This document shows, piece after piece, positions 51,276 through 60,201 of a stretch of 64,000 nt of DNA. The notes under the pieces are model-generated. The model did not search any database, was not told the origin of the DNA, and worked only from the letters and a program-made list of their open reading frames with translations. Source of the DNA: a virus; the IMG/VR virus record IMGVR_UViG_3300036823_000156, positions 1 through 64,000 of that record, one strand, 5' to 3'. Positions within the stretch are counted from its first letter, which is position 1; every line of letters starts with the position of its first letter. The position numbers and the translations under genes are program-made.

Positions 51276-51853
51276 CCGCACGGGCATTACTAAATGGCGT
51301 GCGCCAGCATGGTTGGCTCGTGCGGAGCGAGGTCCGCCCGGCCGGCGGGTCTACTTGGCGCACAGGAGGTCATGGCCAACCGGGCGGAGCGAGTTCCCAG
51401 CCTGCGTCCCGCTATGGGTACACGATAATCACTGGCAGACCGGGAGGTGGAGCCGCCCGGCTGGCGACCGATTTCTGGAGCGCGCTCCGTACTGGCCAGC
51501 CGGGCGGAGTAGGTGATCGAGCGGTCAATTTTGGTGTGTCGCGAAGTAATGGCTCGATCGGAAGGGGACCGCCCGGCTGGCGGGGTCGGGGTGGAGTGCG
51601 ATGTGAGCTGGCCAACCGGGCGGAGTGGTTCCGAGGCGGGACACATTTGGGGTGCGCCACGAAATGGCCTCGGTGTGTTGGGCCGCCCGGCTGGTGGCAT
51701 TAGTTGGAGTGCGACACTCTGATGACCAACCGGGCGGAGTAGATGACCGGGCATAACGATATGGAATGCGAATCGCGTTGGCCCGATCAGAAGGGACCGC
51801 CCGGCTGGCGGTTCAAGATGGGTTGTGTCGGATTTCTGGCCAGCCGGGCGGAG
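51276..51853 (-). ncRNA. stem-loop dual-spacer guide array (TIGR-like), 10 units downstream of the Nop-domain gene
   Basis: Each unit on the minus strand is stem-CCA-N8-10-(C/T)G-N4-5-CCA-N8-9-(C/T)G-stem; every second unit uses stem CCGCCCGGYTGG...CCAGCCGGGCGG. Confidence 0.85.
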
Positions 51854-51855
51854 TC

Positions 51856-52782
51856 TCAGGCCGCGTCCTGCAGGTCGGGCGGTCCGAAGCCGTGGGCGAC
51901 GTGGATGGCGCGGGACTGCCGCCACAGGTCGCGCAGGACCTCCTTGGACACGCACCGCAGGGCGCGAGCGTGGATGTGGTTCTTCGACAGCGGGGTGCCG
52001 GCGAGCGCGGGGCTGCCCGAGGGTCCGCATCGGACGCAGGCCAACTCGTGCACGGCGTCGGCGTAGAACTCCTTCTCCTGGTCGTAGACCTCGCGGTACG
52101 GGCCGCCGGACTTCATGCAGGACTCGGAAATCATCCGGCAGCGCATCCGCGCGGTGACCGACCAGTTGACCTTGGTGCCCTTGCGGCGGGCCGGAGCCAG
52201 ACCGGCGATCACGCTGTAGCCGGAGTAGCTCCACAGCTCGGCGATCGTGCGGGGGCGGCCCATCTTGACGTTCCAGTACGGATCCCCGATCGCGGCCAGC
52301 AGTCGACCGACCTGCTTGGCGCCCAGGCCCTTCTGCGCCTCGATCCAGCCGTACAGCGGGTGGTCCTGAATGGTCTTCTGCAGGTTCTTCGTCGCGTTGA
52401 CCTCGGCCCGCTGCATCGGCGGCACGATCAGGCCCATCTGCCACACCATCGGGTTCCAGCCCTTGGGCATGGTGAAGATCTTGCGGTTGGCCGCGGCCTG
52501 GATGGACAGGTGCGTCTCGACCTCGTCGAGCACGGCCTGCACGAGGTCGAAATCCTCCTCGTCCTCGGGCACGTGGATGTTCGGGGGCAGGAAGCCGAAG
52601 CCGACGTCCTTGCCGTCCTTGTTCATCCGGGGCAGCACGAGCTGGCGCAACCGGTTCTGGTTGGCGATGCGCACGCGCTCCATGTCGTCGAGCACGTCGG
52701 CGGCCATCGTCAACGTGGGCGGCGACATCAGTTCGGCGAGGGGATTCGGTACCGCTTCGACCTCTTCGATCTCTTCTGTCAT
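51856..52782 (-). CDS. Nop-domain / IS110 C-terminal-like RNA-binding protein without nuclease domain (TasA-like)
   Basis: RVRIANQNRL coiled coil, KGLGAKQVGRLLAAIGD, LWSYSG, RRKG...NWS, YREVYD..K, HARALR...K..L.DLW; no RuvC/DEDD N-terminus. Confidence 0.8.
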   Translation of the reverse strand: MTEEIEEVEAVPNPLAELMSPPTLTMAADVLDDMERVRIANQNRLRQLVLPRMNKDGKDVGFGFLPPNIHVPEDEEDFDLVQAVLDEVETHLSIQAAANRKIFTMPKGWNPMVWQMGLIVPPMQRAEVNATKNLQKTIQDHPLYGWIEAQKGLGAKQVGRLLAAIGDPYWNVKMGRPRTIAELWSYSGYSVIAGLAPARRKGTKVNWSVTARMRCRMISESCMKSGGPYREVYDQEKEFYADAVHELACVRCGPSGSPALAGTPLSKNHIHARALRCVSKEVLRDLWRQSRAIHVAHGFGPPDLQDAA

Positions 52783-52810
52783 GCACTTTCTCCTTGGGTG
52801 GGTGGGGATT

Positions 52811-53175
52811 CCGACTGACGGGGAGTGCTGGTCGCACGATCGCTGATGGTCAGTCGGAGCGGTGGTCCGCTCGGCCGGCGGGATGACTTGTGTCGTGCTT
52901 CCGTGTTGGCCGACCGAGCGGAACTCGGTCACCCGGCCGACGTCGTCAGCGTTGGTTCGCCGCGCGCTGTTGGTCGACCGGGCAAATCTCTTCGGGTGGA
53001 ACCGCCCGACTGGCGAAAGGTGTTTGGGCAGCGATCGCTCCTGGCCAGCCGGGCGGAGTCGGGCCCGTTGCCGACACGACGATTGTGAGTCGAGTCGTGC
53101 GGTGGTCGGCAACGGGAGTGGGCGTCCGGCCAACGTTCACCCGTGGGGCGCATGGGTCGAGCTGGTCGGCCGGAC
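52811..53175 (-). ncRNA. stem-loop dual-spacer guide array (TIGR-like), 6 units upstream of the Nop-domain gene
   Basis: Same CCA/CG unit grammar, e.g. CCGCCCGGCTGG-CCA-GGAGCGAT-CGCTGC-CCA-AACACCTTT-CG-CCAGTCGGGCGG. Confidence 0.82.
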
Positions 53176-53178
53176 TGA

Positions 53179-53190
53179 AATGTACACTAA
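53179..53190 (-). promoter_or_regulatory. TTAGTGTACATT motif immediately 5' of the stem-loop array
   Basis: CACCGACCTnnGTTAGTGTACATT is shared with the copy at 54904. Confidence 0.65.
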
Positions 53191-53215
53191 CACAGGTCGG
53201 TGTAGCGGTAATGAT

Positions 53216-53656
53216 CCAAGCCTCGCCTCGCCTGGCCGCGCCCTGCCCAGCCTCGCCCCGCCATGCACCGCCTTGCCTAGCACCGCATCGCCAAGCGCGT
53301 CCGGCAGCGGAGTCGAACCGCTGCTACGACCATCCGGACAACCATTCTCCCAGCCTTGCCATGCCGCGCCATGCCTCGCCGGGCACCGCCCAGCCTCGCC
53401 ACGCCGAGCGTGCTGCCCCCGGGAGTCGAACCCGAGATGCGACCATCGCAGCTACCATTCTCCTAGCCACGCCGCGCACCGCCGCGCCCTGCCGCGCCGA
53501 GCCACGCCATGCCAAGCCACGCCCTGCCGAGCGTGCTGCCCCCGGGAGTCGAACCCGAGGTACGACCATCGCAGCCACCATTCTCCTAGCCTGGCCCAGC
53601 CGCGCCCTGCCCTGCCGAGCCACGCCCTGCCCTGCCGAGCCACGCCACGCCCTGCA
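53216..53656 (-). ncRNA. array of four (GGC-NN)n pentamer tracts separated by three tRNA-like linkers
   Basis: Tracts of 14, 14, 12 and 16 pentamers; linkers GGAGAATGGT..GATGGTCG..GGTTCGACTCC with covarying stems. Confidence 0.85.
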
Positions 53657-53664
53657 TCTTCGCG

Positions 53665-54150
53665 CTAGGCGCGAAGTTTCTTGGGAGCGTTGCGCTCCAA
53701 TTCTGCCACTCGCTCGGCGAGTGACCGAGTTTCGCGGCGGCGGCGGCCGTTGATCTCGGCCTTGCGAGCTGCTACGCGTTCCTCGAAGTCCACCTCGGCC
53801 CGCCGTTCGTGTACCAGTTCGGCACGACGGCGTTGTGAGGCATTGATCTTGGCGGCGTGACGGTCGTCAGCGCGTGCAGCTTTCTTGCGTTGCCTGCCGA
53901 TCAGCGGCACGGCGGCGTTCGGCTCCAACACCAGCCACCCGATGTTCTCCTTGGTTTCGACCGTGTTCTTGCCGGCACGACCGAGTTCCAGATTGGCCTT
54001 GATCATCGCGCCTTGGACCGAGTTCCGGCTGGGCGCCTTGCAGTCCTCGATAGCCTGGGCATAGGTGATGACGCCACCCACCTCGGTCTCGCACACGATG
54101 TCGTACAGGATCCGCCAACGTGCCTTGCCGTTCGCAGGTTCGATGTTCAT
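53665..54150 (-). CDS. putative winged-HTH / coiled-coil DNA-binding accessory protein
   Basis: WRILYDIVCETEVGGVITYAQA (HTH-like), basic coiled-coil C-terminus; coupled to the RAMP-like gene. Confidence 0.55.
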   Translation of the reverse strand: MNIEPANGKARWRILYDIVCETEVGGVITYAQAIEDCKAPSRNSVQGAMIKANLELGRAGKNTVETKENIGWLVLEPNAAVPLIGRQRKKAARADDRHAAKINASQRRRAELVHERRAEVDFEERVAARKAEINGRRRRETRSLAERVAELERNAPKKLRA

Positions 54151-54722
54151 TGAGTCACCTCGACCGTGAACCTCCCGTAGAACCGGCGGAACGTGCCGAC
54201 ACCGATCATCTTGCCCGCCTTGGTCGCGATATCTTGGAAGTCCTCGGTCGACAGCACGCGGTCGTCGACGTCGATCTCGAACGCGCAGGACCACTGCGGG
54301 AAGATCGGCCGGACGCGCGGGATGCGCTTGCCCTCCACATTCACCATCAGGCGGCTGACGTACGGACTGGTCGGCCCGTCGCCCCAGAGACCGTCGACAT
54401 CGCGCGGCCCGTCATAGGACAGTGGCGCCTTCAGATCAAAAACCTGAAGAGCTTGAGCGACTTTCTTGCCCGACCGGGTGATGGACCCCGCCTCCATCAG
54501 CGCCCGGAAGATGTTGTCACCCGGCAGGTACGGACCGAGCTCGGCGTTGTGGTACAGCGCCCCGACCCAGGACAACCGGTCGATCTCGGCCCTGTCCTCG
54601 TCGGTCTTGTTGGTTCGTTTGGACGTCAGTTTCTTTACGGCCCTGGTGATCGGCTCATCGGGGTCGGCAAGTCTGATGTTGTGCATGATGAGCGGCGCGA
54701 TGCCGGTCAGCTCGATTCGCAT
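54147..54722 (-). CDS. Cas7/RAMP-like RNA-binding protein
   Basis: N-terminal strand MRIELTGIAPLIMH, 'YLPGDNIFRAL', 'RVRPIFPQWS..F', C-terminal Gly-rich loop AGKMIGVGTFRRFYGRF. Confidence 0.75.
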   Translation of the reverse strand: MRIELTGIAPLIMHNIRLADPDEPITRAVKKLTSKRTNKTDEDRAEIDRLSWVGALYHNAELGPYLPGDNIFRALMEAGSITRSGKKVAQALQVFDLKAPLSYDGPRDVDGLWGDGPTSPYVSRLMVNVEGKRIPRVRPIFPQWSCAFEIDVDDRVLSTEDFQDIATKAGKMIGVGTFRRFYGRFTVEVTQ

Positions 54723-54790
54723 GACTTTCCGTTCTGTGGTCAGTGTTTGACGGCAGTTCCGTCTCACTTCACATCGGACATTGTCCGATC

Positions 54791-54901
54791 GTGCGGGCCG
54801 AGGACTCGAACCTCGGTGTGTGCCGCTCCCGCTTCCTAGCCTGGCCCCGCCAAGCCCTGCCCTGCCGAGCCACGCCCTGCCATGCCGAGCCCTGCCTTGC
54901 A
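54791..54901 (-). ncRNA. leader (GGC-NN)13 tract plus tRNA-like element
   Basis: 13 pentamers, then GCGGG...CCGAGG-TTCGAGT-CCTCGG-CCCGC-AC. Confidence 0.82.
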
Positions 54902-54903
54902 AG

Positions 54904-54937
54904 AATGTACACTAACGTAGGTCGGTGATCGCGTCAA
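54904..54937 (-). promoter_or_regulatory. sigma70-type promoter TTGACG-N17-TAGTGT
   Basis: -35 at 54932-54937, -10 at 54909-54914; predicted start falls at the first pentamer. Confidence 0.7.
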
Positions 54938-60189: not shown

Positions 60190-60201
60190 AATGTACACTA
60201 A
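60190..60201 (-). promoter_or_regulatory. TTAGTGTACATT repeated motif
   Basis: TTGCAA lies 18 nt upstream of TACATT on the minus strand. Confidence 0.6.

What the first reader, a model, noticed from the sequence alone, without database searches (positions are those of the whole stretch)
53216..54937. Candidate non-CRISPR RNA-guided system: Cas7/RAMP-like protein with (GGC-NN)n gapped-code RNA array
Seen in sequence, on the minus strand and in order: a TTGACG-N17-TAGTGT promoter opening directly into a 13-pentamer GGC-NN tract; a 191-aa protein with RAMP/Cas7 hallmarks (N-terminal strand, C-terminal Gly-rich loop AGKMIGVGTFRRFYGRF); a coupled HTH-like gene; and four more tracts (14, 14, 12, 16 pentamers). 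The triplet is nearly invariant (GGC, sometimes TGC, often after NN=GG). The dinucleotides differ between tracts, so the information is carried in NN. No cas1, cas3, cas5 or cas6 gene and no CRISPR repeat is recognisable. Inference: the RAMP oligomerises one subunit per pentamer, grips GGC and displays NN to recognise a discontinuous target, probably for nuclease-free silencing of rival phages or host genes. As I recall, this matches recently reported VIPR-type viral systems; that attribution should be verified.
Basis: partly seen in the sequence, partly recalled or inferred. Interest (0 to 1): 0.97.

Follow-up and report, generated by a model that had tools for sequence, protein, structure and literature searches.

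The report
VIPR RNA-guided system in an actinophage
This is a real, complete-looking copy of the recently published phage VIPR system, in which a Cas7-like protein and GGC-NN repeat RNAs are thought to silence rival DNA; it sits in a new soil actinophage, and its only unusual feature is that each guide RNA ends in a miniature tRNA-like structure.

Summary
On the minus strand there are five tracts of 13, 14, 14, 12 and 16 xGC-NN pentamers. They are the only such tracts in the 84-kb phage genome. They flank a 191-aa gene and an overlapping 161-aa gene.

The 191-aa protein is a sequence homologue of the solved SUSP1 Vipr protein (PDB 36pp, E 2e-22, full length). Its model (pLDDT 93) matches Csm3/Cas7 best. 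The 161-aa protein is a winged-helix, Vap1-like partner. Most of the roughly 80 distinct loci fetched with Vipr homologues carry same-strand GGY-NN tracts. There is no Cas1 and no CRISPR array.

VIPR was published in three 2026 bioRxiv preprints, so this is a new member of a known kind (type II-like), not a new system.

One detail is absent from the text of those preprints. Four of the five guides end in a covarying acceptor-stem plus T-arm mini-tRNA. This tail occurs at 61 sites in 22 related loci plus the window, and replaces the SUSP1 pseudoknot.

No natural target was found, and there is no self-target. Expression, binding and silencing are inferred by homology, not shown. A TIGR-Tas-like module lies immediately downstream.

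The parts
54909..54937 (-). Promoter-like element: TTGACG, 17-nt spacer, TAGTGT. It opens directly into vrRNA1.
   Evidence: Read from the sequence. The -10 block GT-TAGTGT-ACATT recurs at 60200, 54914, 53189, 50831 and 48447 on this strand. It fails the E. coli consensus scan. Its function is inferred.
54837..54901 (-). vrRNA1 guide tract, 13 xGC-NN pentamers
54787..54834 (-). vrRNA1 3' tail: a 5-bp acceptor-like stem, an 11-nt linker containing GG, and a 6-bp T-arm with a TTCGAGT loop
   Evidence: Covariance model R1 hit, 49.3 bits, E 2e-10. The minimum-free-energy fold equals the model structure.
54771..54792 (-). Small hairpin between the vrRNA1 tail and vipr; role unknown
   Evidence: Minimum-free-energy fold
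54147..54722 (-). vipr, 191 aa: a RAMP/Cas7-like guide-binding protein
   Evidence: PDB 36pp_D (SUSP1 Vipr) E 2.3e-22 over residues 2-189. phrog_4652 E 1e-42. AlphaFold2 pLDDT 93. Csm3 is the top fold match.
53665..54150 (-). vap, 161 aa: an N-terminal winged helix plus a basic C-terminal coiled coil. Its start overlaps the vipr stop (ATGA).
   Evidence: Weak homology to the vap genes of LittleE, MakoManhole and wV8. Model and winged-helix fold matches.
53658..53676 (-). 8-bp palindrome spanning the vap stop codon, directly 5' of vrRNA2
   Evidence: (reported on the + strand)
53587..53656 (-). vrRNA2 guide tract, 14 pentamers. It shares seven units in register with vrRNA1: five consecutive units plus the last two.
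53529..53577 (-). vrRNA2 tRNA-like tail
   Evidence: R1 hit, 47.5 bits
53464..53533 (-). vrRNA3 guide tract, 14 pentamers. The first unit (CGCTC) directly follows the tail of vrRNA2.
53406..53454 (-). vrRNA3 tRNA-like tail
   Evidence: R1 hit, 48.2 bits
53351..53410 (-). vrRNA4 guide tract, 12 pentamers
53293..53341 (-). vrRNA4 tRNA-like tail; its stems covary with those of tails 2 and 3
   Evidence: R1 hit, 45.5 bits
53218..53297 (-). Fifth tract, 16 pentamers, with no tail; status uncertain
   Evidence: There is no R1 hit downstream. The last tract of the Mycobacterium phage LittleE array likewise lacks a tail.
53178..53198 (-). Second copy of the promoter motif (TAGTGT at 53189-53184). It closes the VIPR unit and heads the next module.

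Best explanation
This is a type II-like VIPR (Viral Interference Programmable Repeat) locus of an uncultured, roughly 84-kb, 67% GC soil siphovirus of Actinomycetota.

Proposed mechanism:
1. A phage promoter transcribes vrRNA1, then vipr, vap and an array of vrRNA2 to vrRNA5.
2. Vipr, a minimal Cas7-like RAMP, polymerises along each guide, one protomer per pentamer. It grips the xGC triplet and exposes the NN dinucleotides.
3. The exposed dinucleotides pair with double-stranded DNA that has one unpaired base between successive dinucleotides (the 1-nt skip rule).
4. The bound filament, helped by the winged-helix Vap protein, blocks transcription of a competing mobile element without cutting it.
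5. Each functional guide ends in a mini tRNA-like cap, consisting of an acceptor-like stem stacked on a T-arm. This cap takes the place of the SUSP1 3' pseudoknot.

What is shown here: the sequence anatomy, homology of Vipr to a solved Vipr, the RAMP fold, the winged-helix partner, co-occurrence of homologues with tracts, covariation of the tail, and absence of self-targets.

What is inferred by homology with SUSP1 and P. fulva VIPR: transcription, ribonucleoprotein assembly, the skip rule, silencing, and the kind of target.
For: - Vipr homology: PDB 36pp_D 'SUSP1 Vipr protein', E 2.3e-22, residues 2-189 of 191.
- Functional residues: five of the six SUSP1 residues taken from preprint .720927 are conserved or conservatively kept, as H14, K30, R138, F178 and R179.
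- Fold: AlphaFold2 pLDDT 93, with Csm3/Cas7 as best fold matches at probability 1.0.
- Tracts: five xGC-NN tracts of 12-16 units, within the published range of 9-16, and unique in the genome.
- Co-occurrence: most of the roughly 80 distinct loci fetched with Vipr homologues carry same-strand tracts, with few on the opposite strand.
- Vap: winged helix, weakly homologous to the vap genes of other VIPR loci.
- Context: a virus record, 92% complete, encoding TerL, major capsid protein, tape measure protein and Dit.
- No Cas1.
- No self-target under the skip rule; the maximum is 68% NN identity, as published for other VIPRs.
- Tail: 61 covariance-model hits, all on the vipr strand. 88% of cells are paired, and the covariation score is 0.577 against 0.158 for shuffles.
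Against: - There is no RNA data for this phage; no RNA run holds it.
- No natural target was found. The 8-unit seeds in IMG/VR extend only at chance level.
- SUSP1 D177, which contacts G1 and is essential in SUSP1, is T177 here and in the closest relatives.
- The fifth tract has no tail.
- The promoter hexamers are weak by E. coli criteria.
- Vap homology to SUSP1-clade Vap1 is marginal (hhalign probability 30%).
Confidence: 0.88

Rival explanations
1. The locus is a decaying or inactive VIPR relic. The genes and tracts are recognisable but no longer form a working silencer.
For: SUSP1's essential D177 is replaced by T. The fifth tract lacks a tail. vrRNA1 and vrRNA2 are partly redundant and vrRNA2 is internally repetitive. 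No target was found.
Against: Both ORFs are intact and translationally coupled. T177 is shared by all relatives of 70% identity or more, so it is a clade trait and not a lesion. The four tails keep their pairing through compensatory changes. The locus has its own copy of the phage promoter motif.
Confidence: 0.07
2. It is a divergent CRISPR-Cas (type III or IV-like) remnant carried by a phage, with the pentamer tracts being unrelated simple repeats.
For: The best solved-structure fold matches outside Vipr are Csm3/Cas7.
Against: There is no Cas1 and no repeat-spacer array. There is a single small RAMP without a second RRM. Sequence homology is to Vipr, not to any Cas7. The tracts travel with Vipr homologues across most of the related loci fetched.
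Confidence: 0.02
3. The tRNA-like tails are only a structural 3' cap that nucleates Vipr assembly, as the SUSP1 pseudoknot does. Their resemblance to a tRNA acceptor/T-arm has no consequence for host tRNA enzymes.
For: In SUSP1 the 3' pseudoknot stays on the RNP and protomers add from 3' to 5' (preprint .720927). ARAGORN and the Rfam tRNA model do not recognise the tails. Folding energies are not better than shuffles.
Against: The T-loop consensus G-TTCGANT-C is kept at 49-61 of 61 sites. A GG is kept in the linker at 58 and 61 of 61 sites, where a D-loop GG would sit. A purine followed by CGC follows the stem at 59, 58, 52 and 42 of 61 sites. This is more tRNA-specific conservation than a generic cap needs.
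Confidence: 0.45

Closest known systems
Type II VIPR of Escherichia phage SUSP1 and the P. fulva prophage (bioRxiv 10.64898/2026.04.26.720920 and .720927)
   Same: Both have a homologous Vipr of about 190 aa and a vipr-vap two-gene operon. Both place one vrRNA upstream and an array downstream. Both use GGY-NN pentamer guides of 12-16 units, each with a conserved structured 3' tail. Both lack a nuclease gene, are phage-borne and have no self-target.
   Different: Vipr identity is only about 30%. The host lineage here is Actinomycetota, and the repeat is GGC rather than GGT. G-loop D177 is T. The tail is an acceptor-stem plus T-arm mini-tRNA rather than an H-type pseudoknot. Vap is only marginally similar. 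Targets are unknown.
Vipr loci of cultured actinophages: Gordonia phages Trine and MakoManhole, Mycobacterium phages LittleE and prophiBWHA-1. All are annotated 'hypothetical protein'.
   Same: Vipr identity is 40-42%. They have GGC-NN tracts and the same tRNA-like tail class. In LittleE the last tract of the array is also tail-less.
   Different: They belong to a different Vipr subclade and sit at different genomic positions; in LittleE the locus lies between tail genes. The phages are unrelated to this one.
Class 1 CRISPR backbone subunit Cas7/Csm3
   Same: RRM core, G-rich loop and thumb. It oligomerises along a guide RNA, with periodic base flipping.
   Different: There is no CRISPR array, no Cas1/2/5/6/10 and no second RAMP. 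The period is 5 nt with 2 read, rather than 6 nt with 5 read. The target is DNA bound through a gapped code.
tRNA-like processing modules: MALAT1 mascRNA and engineered tRNA-gRNA arrays
   Same: A tRNA-shaped element punctuates a longer transcript at the borders of functional RNAs. The only Rfam family that aligns to the tail at all is mascRNA-menRNA (13 bits, E about 10, not significant).
   Different: There is no D arm or anticodon arm. Cleavage by RNase P or RNase Z is not shown here. The element may stay attached as the guide's cap.

Membership tests
VIPR | Vipr protein: a minimal RAMP (RRM core, G-loop, thumb) homologous to known Viprs | tested here: met
   PDB 36pp_D (SUSP1 Vipr) E 2.3e-22, full length. 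AlphaFold2 pLDDT 93. Csm3/Cas7 are the top fold matches.
VIPR | Residues that hold GGY and the target backbone in SUSP1: H17, K33, R138, D177, W178, R179 | tested here: inconclusive
   They map to H14, K30, R138, T177, F178 and R179, so five are kept and D177 is replaced by T. T177 is shared by all relatives of 70% identity or more.
VIPR | vrRNA genes: 9-16 tandem YNNGG (GGY-NN) units with conserved GGY and variable NN | tested here: met
   Five tracts of 12-16 units. 59 of 69 units are GGC, the GC is invariant and NN varies. The tracts are unique in the genome.
VIPR | A conserved structured 3' tail after each tract | tested here: met
   Four of the five tracts have one. The structure is supported by covariation, but the fold differs from the SUSP1 pseudoknot.
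VIPR | Adjacent vap accessory gene (a DNA-binding type in type II) | tested here: met
   A 161-aa ORF coupled by ATGA. It has a winged-helix N-terminal domain and weak homology to other vap genes.
VIPR | Homologues of the protein co-occur with tracts on the same strand | tested here: met
   This holds in most of the roughly 80 distinct loci fetched with Vipr homologues; opposite-strand tracts are rare.
VIPR | Viral or proviral context with no CRISPR array or adaptation genes | tested here: met
   Virus record, 92% complete, with siphovirus structural genes. There is no Cas1 and no CRISPR-like array.
VIPR | vrRNAs are expressed and bound by Vipr | not testable with these tools
   No RNA run holds the sequence.
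VIPR | Guides match competing mobile elements under the 1-nt skip rule at 80% NN identity or more, and do not match their own genome | tested here: inconclusive
   No self-match; the maximum is 68%. The IMG/VR seed searches for all five guides gave only chance-level extensions. The search needed 8 exact units and covered one collection only.
CRISPR-Cas | A repeat-spacer array plus the cas1/cas2 adaptation module, or multi-subunit effector genes | tested here: not met
   The genome has a single RAMP gene.
tRNA (for the tails) | A cloverleaf with D and anticodon arms, recognised by tRNA models | tested here: not met
   ARAGORN finds no gene in the window. The Rfam tRNA family gives no match even at E<=10. 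Only an acceptor-like stem, a T-arm and a linker GG are present.

The most novel reading that the evidence does not exclude
In a large Vipr clade, which includes this phage and cultured Gordonia and Mycobacterium phages, the guide's 3' cap is a miniature tRNA: an acceptor stem, a T-arm and a D-loop-like GG. This structure may recruit host tRNA enzymes (RNase P, RNase Z, possibly the CCA-adding enzyme) to cut the array into single guides and stabilise them. That would be a natural counterpart of engineered tRNA-gRNA arrays. Separately, the phage stacks this VIPR next to a TIGR-Tas-like module under copies of the same promoter, forming a two-system RNA-guided island.
Probability: 0.4. Interest if true: 0.6.

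Novelty: new member of a known kind. Interest (0 to 1): 0.45.

Why it matters
This locus extends the newly described VIPR family to an uncultured soil actinophage. It also shows that tractable, already-sequenced phages carry unannotated VIPR loci of the same tail class: Gordonia phages Trine and MakoManhole and Mycobacterium phage LittleE. These have BSL-1 hosts such as Mycobacterium smegmatis and Gordonia terrae.

The tRNA-like tail offers a testable answer to a question the published work leaves open outside the hammerhead-containing types: how vrRNA arrays are cut into units. The D177T change in the G-loop, together with tolerated TGC units, may indicate a relaxed reading of the first G.

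For the scan itself, the main lesson is that the system is real but no longer new.

Tried and rejected
I therefore could not fetch the contigs of the closest Vipr relatives (78-83% identity), and could not examine guide turnover among near relatives.
- I stopped that form and extracted the tracts by coordinates instead.
- **Searches for relatives.**
  - The metagenome scan returned no close relatives.
  - The genome-contig scan returned one distant locus.
  - Dit and DNA polymerase queries found no relatives of this phage in IMG/VR.
  - Megablast against GenBank phages found nothing.
- **Target hunt.**
  - I scored all five guides at skip lengths 0-3 against the phage's own genome and at skip lengths 0-2 against the first 87 fetched loci. 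Nothing reached 80%, apart from each tract matching itself at skip 3.
  - I also searched IMG/VR with short 8-unit 1-nt-skip IUPAC motifs for vrRNA1 to vrRNA5. These gave 7, 41, 1, 8 and 22 seed hits.
  - Extension reached at most 81%, and those hits came from contigs of 42-51% GC.
  - Guides with shuffled unit order reach the same or nearly the same maxima (within 1 of 28 NN positions).
  - Full-length degenerate searches that tolerate mismatches, as in the published nhmmer protocol, could not be run on public collections with these tools.
- **Codon reading.** Reading the NN dinucleotides as codon positions 1-2 gives helix-like peptides in the antisense direction for vrRNA1 and vrRNA2. No matching gene was identified.
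- **No RNA holder is listed** for this sequence.
- **Promoter and fold statistics.** The E. coli-type promoter scan was negative. Tail folding energies are not better than shuffles.
- **Rfam.** There was no significant family. mascRNA-menRNA at E about 10 is not evidence.
- **Supplements.** The supplementary tables of the VIPR preprint are not held. The formal type assignment (I-VII) and any mention of tRNA-like tails there could not be checked.
- **Frame error.** My first Pfam, PHROG and PDB scans of the downstream 308-aa gene used a wrong frame. I repeated the Pfam and PDB scans with the start at 52782.
Full report
**1. The observation**

All features lie on the minus strand of the window. 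In order they are:
- TTGACG (54937-54932), a 17-nt spacer and TAGTGT (54914-54909);
- a tract of 13 pentamers (54901-54837);
- a 191-aa ORF (54722-54147);
- a 161-aa ORF (54150-53665), whose ATG overlaps the upstream stop codon;
- four further tracts at 53656-53587, 53533-53464, 53410-53351 and 53297-53218.

Of the 69 units, 59 start with GGC, 7 with TGC and 3 with CGC. The GC at positions 2-3 never varies, and the NN dinucleotides differ within and between tracts.

A scan of both strands of the whole 83,959-bp genome for seven or more such units finds only these five tracts. Tandem Repeats Finder reports the same places. This is far more than chance.

**2. The genome**

The window belongs to a single-contig virus record of 83,959 bp and 67% GC. 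CheckV estimates it as 92% complete, and it comes from a soil metagenome. It encodes a large terminase, major head protein, tape-measure protein, Dit and minor tail proteins on the plus strand. DNA polymerase and an SNF2-type helicase lie on the minus strand.

The helicase is at most 44% identical to those of Mycobacterium and Nocardia phages. No near relative exists in GenBank phages or IMG/VR. It is therefore a new siphovirus of some actinobacterium. The closest named Vipr homologues, at 56-59% identity, are in Amycolatopsis genomes.

**3. The protein**

The 191-aa protein has no Pfam family. It matches phrog_4652, of unknown function, at E 1e-42.

Against PDB chain sequences it matches one entry over its whole length: 36pp chain D, named 'SUSP1 Vipr protein', at E 2.3e-22. 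An AlphaFold2 model built from 29 homologues has a mean pLDDT of 93. In a structure library that predates the Vipr entries, its best matches are Csm3/Cas7 subunits of type III-A complexes, with probability 1.0, E about 1e-4 and TM about 0.5.

I mapped the residues that the cryo-EM preprint names as holding the GGY motif and the target backbone in SUSP1. The mapping is:
- H17 to H14
- K33 to K30
- R138 to R138
- W178 to F178
- R179 to R179
- D177 to T177

The threonine is shared by every relative of 70% identity or more, whereas more distant relatives keep aspartate. It is therefore a clade trait and not damage. It may go with the tolerated TGC units.

**4. The partner gene**

The 161-aa protein has only four close homologues. 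Its model shows a confident winged helix at residues 10-76 (pLDDT about 90), followed by long basic helices.

Fold matches are all winged-helix DNA-binding domains of the OmpR, MarR, GntR and PurR kinds, at modest E-values. The protein aligns weakly but colinearly with the gene downstream of vipr in three other phages:
- Mycobacterium phage LittleE, E 3e-7;
- Gordonia phage MakoManhole, annotated 'DNA binding protein', E 0.004;
- the SUSP1-clade phage wV8, E 3e-4, and 118 columns by hhalign.

This fits the Vap1-like DNA-binding accessory of type II VIPR.

**5. Co-occurrence of homologues with tracts**

Vipr homologues occur in 130 GenBank phage records, mostly felixounaviruses but also Gordonia, Mycobacterium and Pseudomonas phages. 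They also occur in 80 IMG/VR loci.

Most of the fetched loci carry GGY-NN tracts of six or more units on the strand of the vipr gene. Opposite-strand tracts are rare.

**6. The literature**

VIPR is real and published. [quoted passage not shown]
- Vipr, an ancestral RAMP;
- vrRNAs of 9-16 YNNGG repeats followed by a structured tail;
- vap genes, and seven system types;
- the 1-nt skip rule;
- programmable, nuclease-free repression of competing phages and satellites.

A companion preprint gives cryo-EM structures. A third shows competition between phage and satellites.

The anatomy here is that of the type II systems characterised in those papers: a vipr-vap operon, one guide upstream, an array downstream, a DNA-binding Vap and no nuclease. 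The supplementary tables are not held, so I could not check the formal type assignment.

**7. The tails**

Tracts 1-4 are each followed by the same architecture:
- a 5-bp stem;
- an 11-nt linker containing GG;
- a 6-bp stem closed by a 7-nt loop reading TTCGA(C/G)T between G and C;
- the 3' strand of the first stem, either directly or after one bulged base;
- a purine followed by CGC.

The same design follows the tracts in Trine, LittleE, MakoManhole, prophiBWHA-1 and many IMG/VR loci, including one of 31% GC. The SUSP1-clade phage wV8 and Pseudomonas phage LESphi2 have different tails.

A covariance model built from 28 tails finds 61 sites in 22 loci plus the window. All sites are on the vipr strand. 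The four in the 64-kb window are exactly the four tails.

On the resulting alignment:
- 88% of cells form standard pairs, against 62% in shuffles;
- 10 of 11 pairs show changes on both sides;
- the covariation score is 0.577, against 0.158 for shuffles (0 of 500 shuffles reach it) and at most 0.244 when the partner columns are slid.

This alignment was fitted to the model, which favours the structure. The raw sequences nevertheless show the compensatory changes plainly.

Position-by-position conservation:
- the T-loop letters are kept at 49-61 of 61 sites;
- the linker GG is kept at 58 and 61 of 61;
- the trailing purine, C, G and C are kept at 59, 58, 52 and 42 of 61.

The loop and its closing pair equal the tRNA T-arm consensus, and the GG sits where a D-loop GG would. 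The comparison with tRNA rests on established tRNA knowledge, not on a test here. ARAGORN and the Rfam tRNA model do not call these elements. Folding energies are unremarkable.

The tail class clusters on a quick Vipr tree:
- the window sits in a five-member clade in which every member has it (SH-aLRT 96);
- a 20-member clade holding all the cultured actinophages has it in 14 members;
- the label needs 8 changes on the tree, against 19.7 for shuffled labels.

The word 'tRNA' does not occur in the text of any of the three preprints. The feature therefore appears to be undescribed, though it may appear in figures or tables that I cannot read. An earlier first-stage note of this scan (e1-6106862) saw the same elements; I have now tested that reading.

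**8. What the tails may do**

In SUSP1 the 3' pseudoknot stays on the particle, and protomers add from it toward the 5' end. The mini-tRNA is most simply the equivalent cap.

In the array, the next tract starts in pentamer phase immediately after the purine that follows the stem. A single cut there, at the position where RNase Z cuts a tRNA precursor, would create both the 3' end of one guide and the 5' end of the next. RNase P cleavage at the 5' border of the stem would instead sever guide from cap. Which of these happens, if either, is inference and needs end mapping.

The fifth tract has no tail and runs into the next copy of the promoter motif. The last tract of the LittleE array is likewise tail-less. 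Its status is open.

**9. Transcription signals**

The block GT-TAGTGT-ACATT recurs on the same strand at 60200, 54914, 53189, 50831 and 48447, each ahead of a gene or module. TAGTGT fits the actinobacterial TANNNT -10 form; that statement rests on established knowledge. I read these as copies of a phage promoter. One opens the VIPR unit, and the next lies just after tract 5.

An 8-bp palindrome spans the vap stop codon just before vrRNA2.

**10. Targets**

Under the 1-nt skip rule no guide matches its own genome above 68% of NN positions. This agrees with the published absence of self-targeting. No guide matches the first 87 fetched loci at 80% or more at skip lengths 0-2.

Exact 8-unit seeds for all five guides in IMG/VR gave 7, 41, 1, 8 and 22 hits. 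Extensions are at chance level, with a maximum of 81%, and those hits come from contigs of 42-51% GC. Guides with shuffled unit order reach the same or nearly the same maxima. The natural targets are therefore unknown.

vrRNA1 and vrRNA2 share seven units in register, five consecutive ones plus the last two, and so probably aim at two variants of one site. Read antisense as codon positions 1-2, both guides give helix-like peptides. This is a lead and not a result.

**11. Verdict**

This locus is a new, well-preserved member in a new host lineage. It has one apparently undescribed variant feature, the mini-tRNA cap, and one notable neighbour, described next. Function here rests on homology.

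**12. The neighbour**

The 308-aa gene immediately downstream (52782-51856) matches two solved chains:
- 9mty_A, an 'IS110 C-terminal domain' protein, at E 9e-16;
- 21kl_A, TasH, at E 4e-4.

It is flanked on both sides by hairpin units with stems of 12-24 nt and loops of 28-29 nt. I did not pursue it further.

Noticed in passing
window 51276-53175, minus strand (gene 52782-51856): The 308-aa gene directly downstream of the VIPR unit matches PDB 9mty_A (an IS110 C-terminal-domain protein, E 9e-16) and TasH 21kl_A (E 4e-4). Hairpin units with stems of 12-24 nt and loops of 28-29 nt lie on both sides of it. It looks like a TIGR-Tas-like RNA-guided module stacked next to VIPR. It has no Pfam hit.
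   Followed up: partly
window 60200, 54914, 53189, 50831, 48447 (minus strand); 7748 (plus strand); also genome 73161 (plus strand), beyond the window: A conserved GT-TAGTGT-ACATT block recurs ahead of genes and modules. It is probably the phage's own promoter -10 region. One copy heads VIPR and the next heads the Tas-like module.
   Followed up: partly
window about 62893 (minus strand); also genome about 67435 (minus strand), beyond the window: Two further GGTTCGAATCC T-arm-like motifs lie outside the VIPR locus. ARAGORN calls no tRNA in the window, and the tail model R1 does not hit them. I did not check this.
   Followed up: no
L001 (Gordonia phage Trine gp41-40), L002 (Mycobacterium phage LittleE gp34-33), L003 (prophiBWHA-1 gp43-42), L004 (Gordonia phage MakoManhole gp78-77): Cultured, sequenced actinophages carry unannotated VIPR loci: vipr is labelled 'hypothetical protein', and the vrRNA tracts and tRNA-like tails lie in 'intergenic' DNA. 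In LittleE the locus sits among tail genes.
   Followed up: partly
L045 4679-5023; L062; L015 (IMG/VR loci): Some Vipr loci have very long uninterrupted pentamer runs under my merging rule: 69 units in L045, and 20-32 units in L062 and L015. These are far beyond the published 9-16. They may be staggered or overlapping guides, or arrays without recognisable tails.
   Followed up: no
window 54771-54792 and 53658-53676, minus strand: A small hairpin lies between the vrRNA1 tail and vipr. A palindrome spans the vap stop codon just 5' of vrRNA2. They may be processing or attenuation signals.
   Followed up: no
window 51290-52837 and other long ORFs: In this 67% GC genome, out-of-frame and antisense ORFs of several hundred codons are common. 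My first scans of the 308-aa gene silently used such a frame. ORFs over the pentamer tracts, for example 53324-53623, are artefacts of the repeat.
   Followed up: yes
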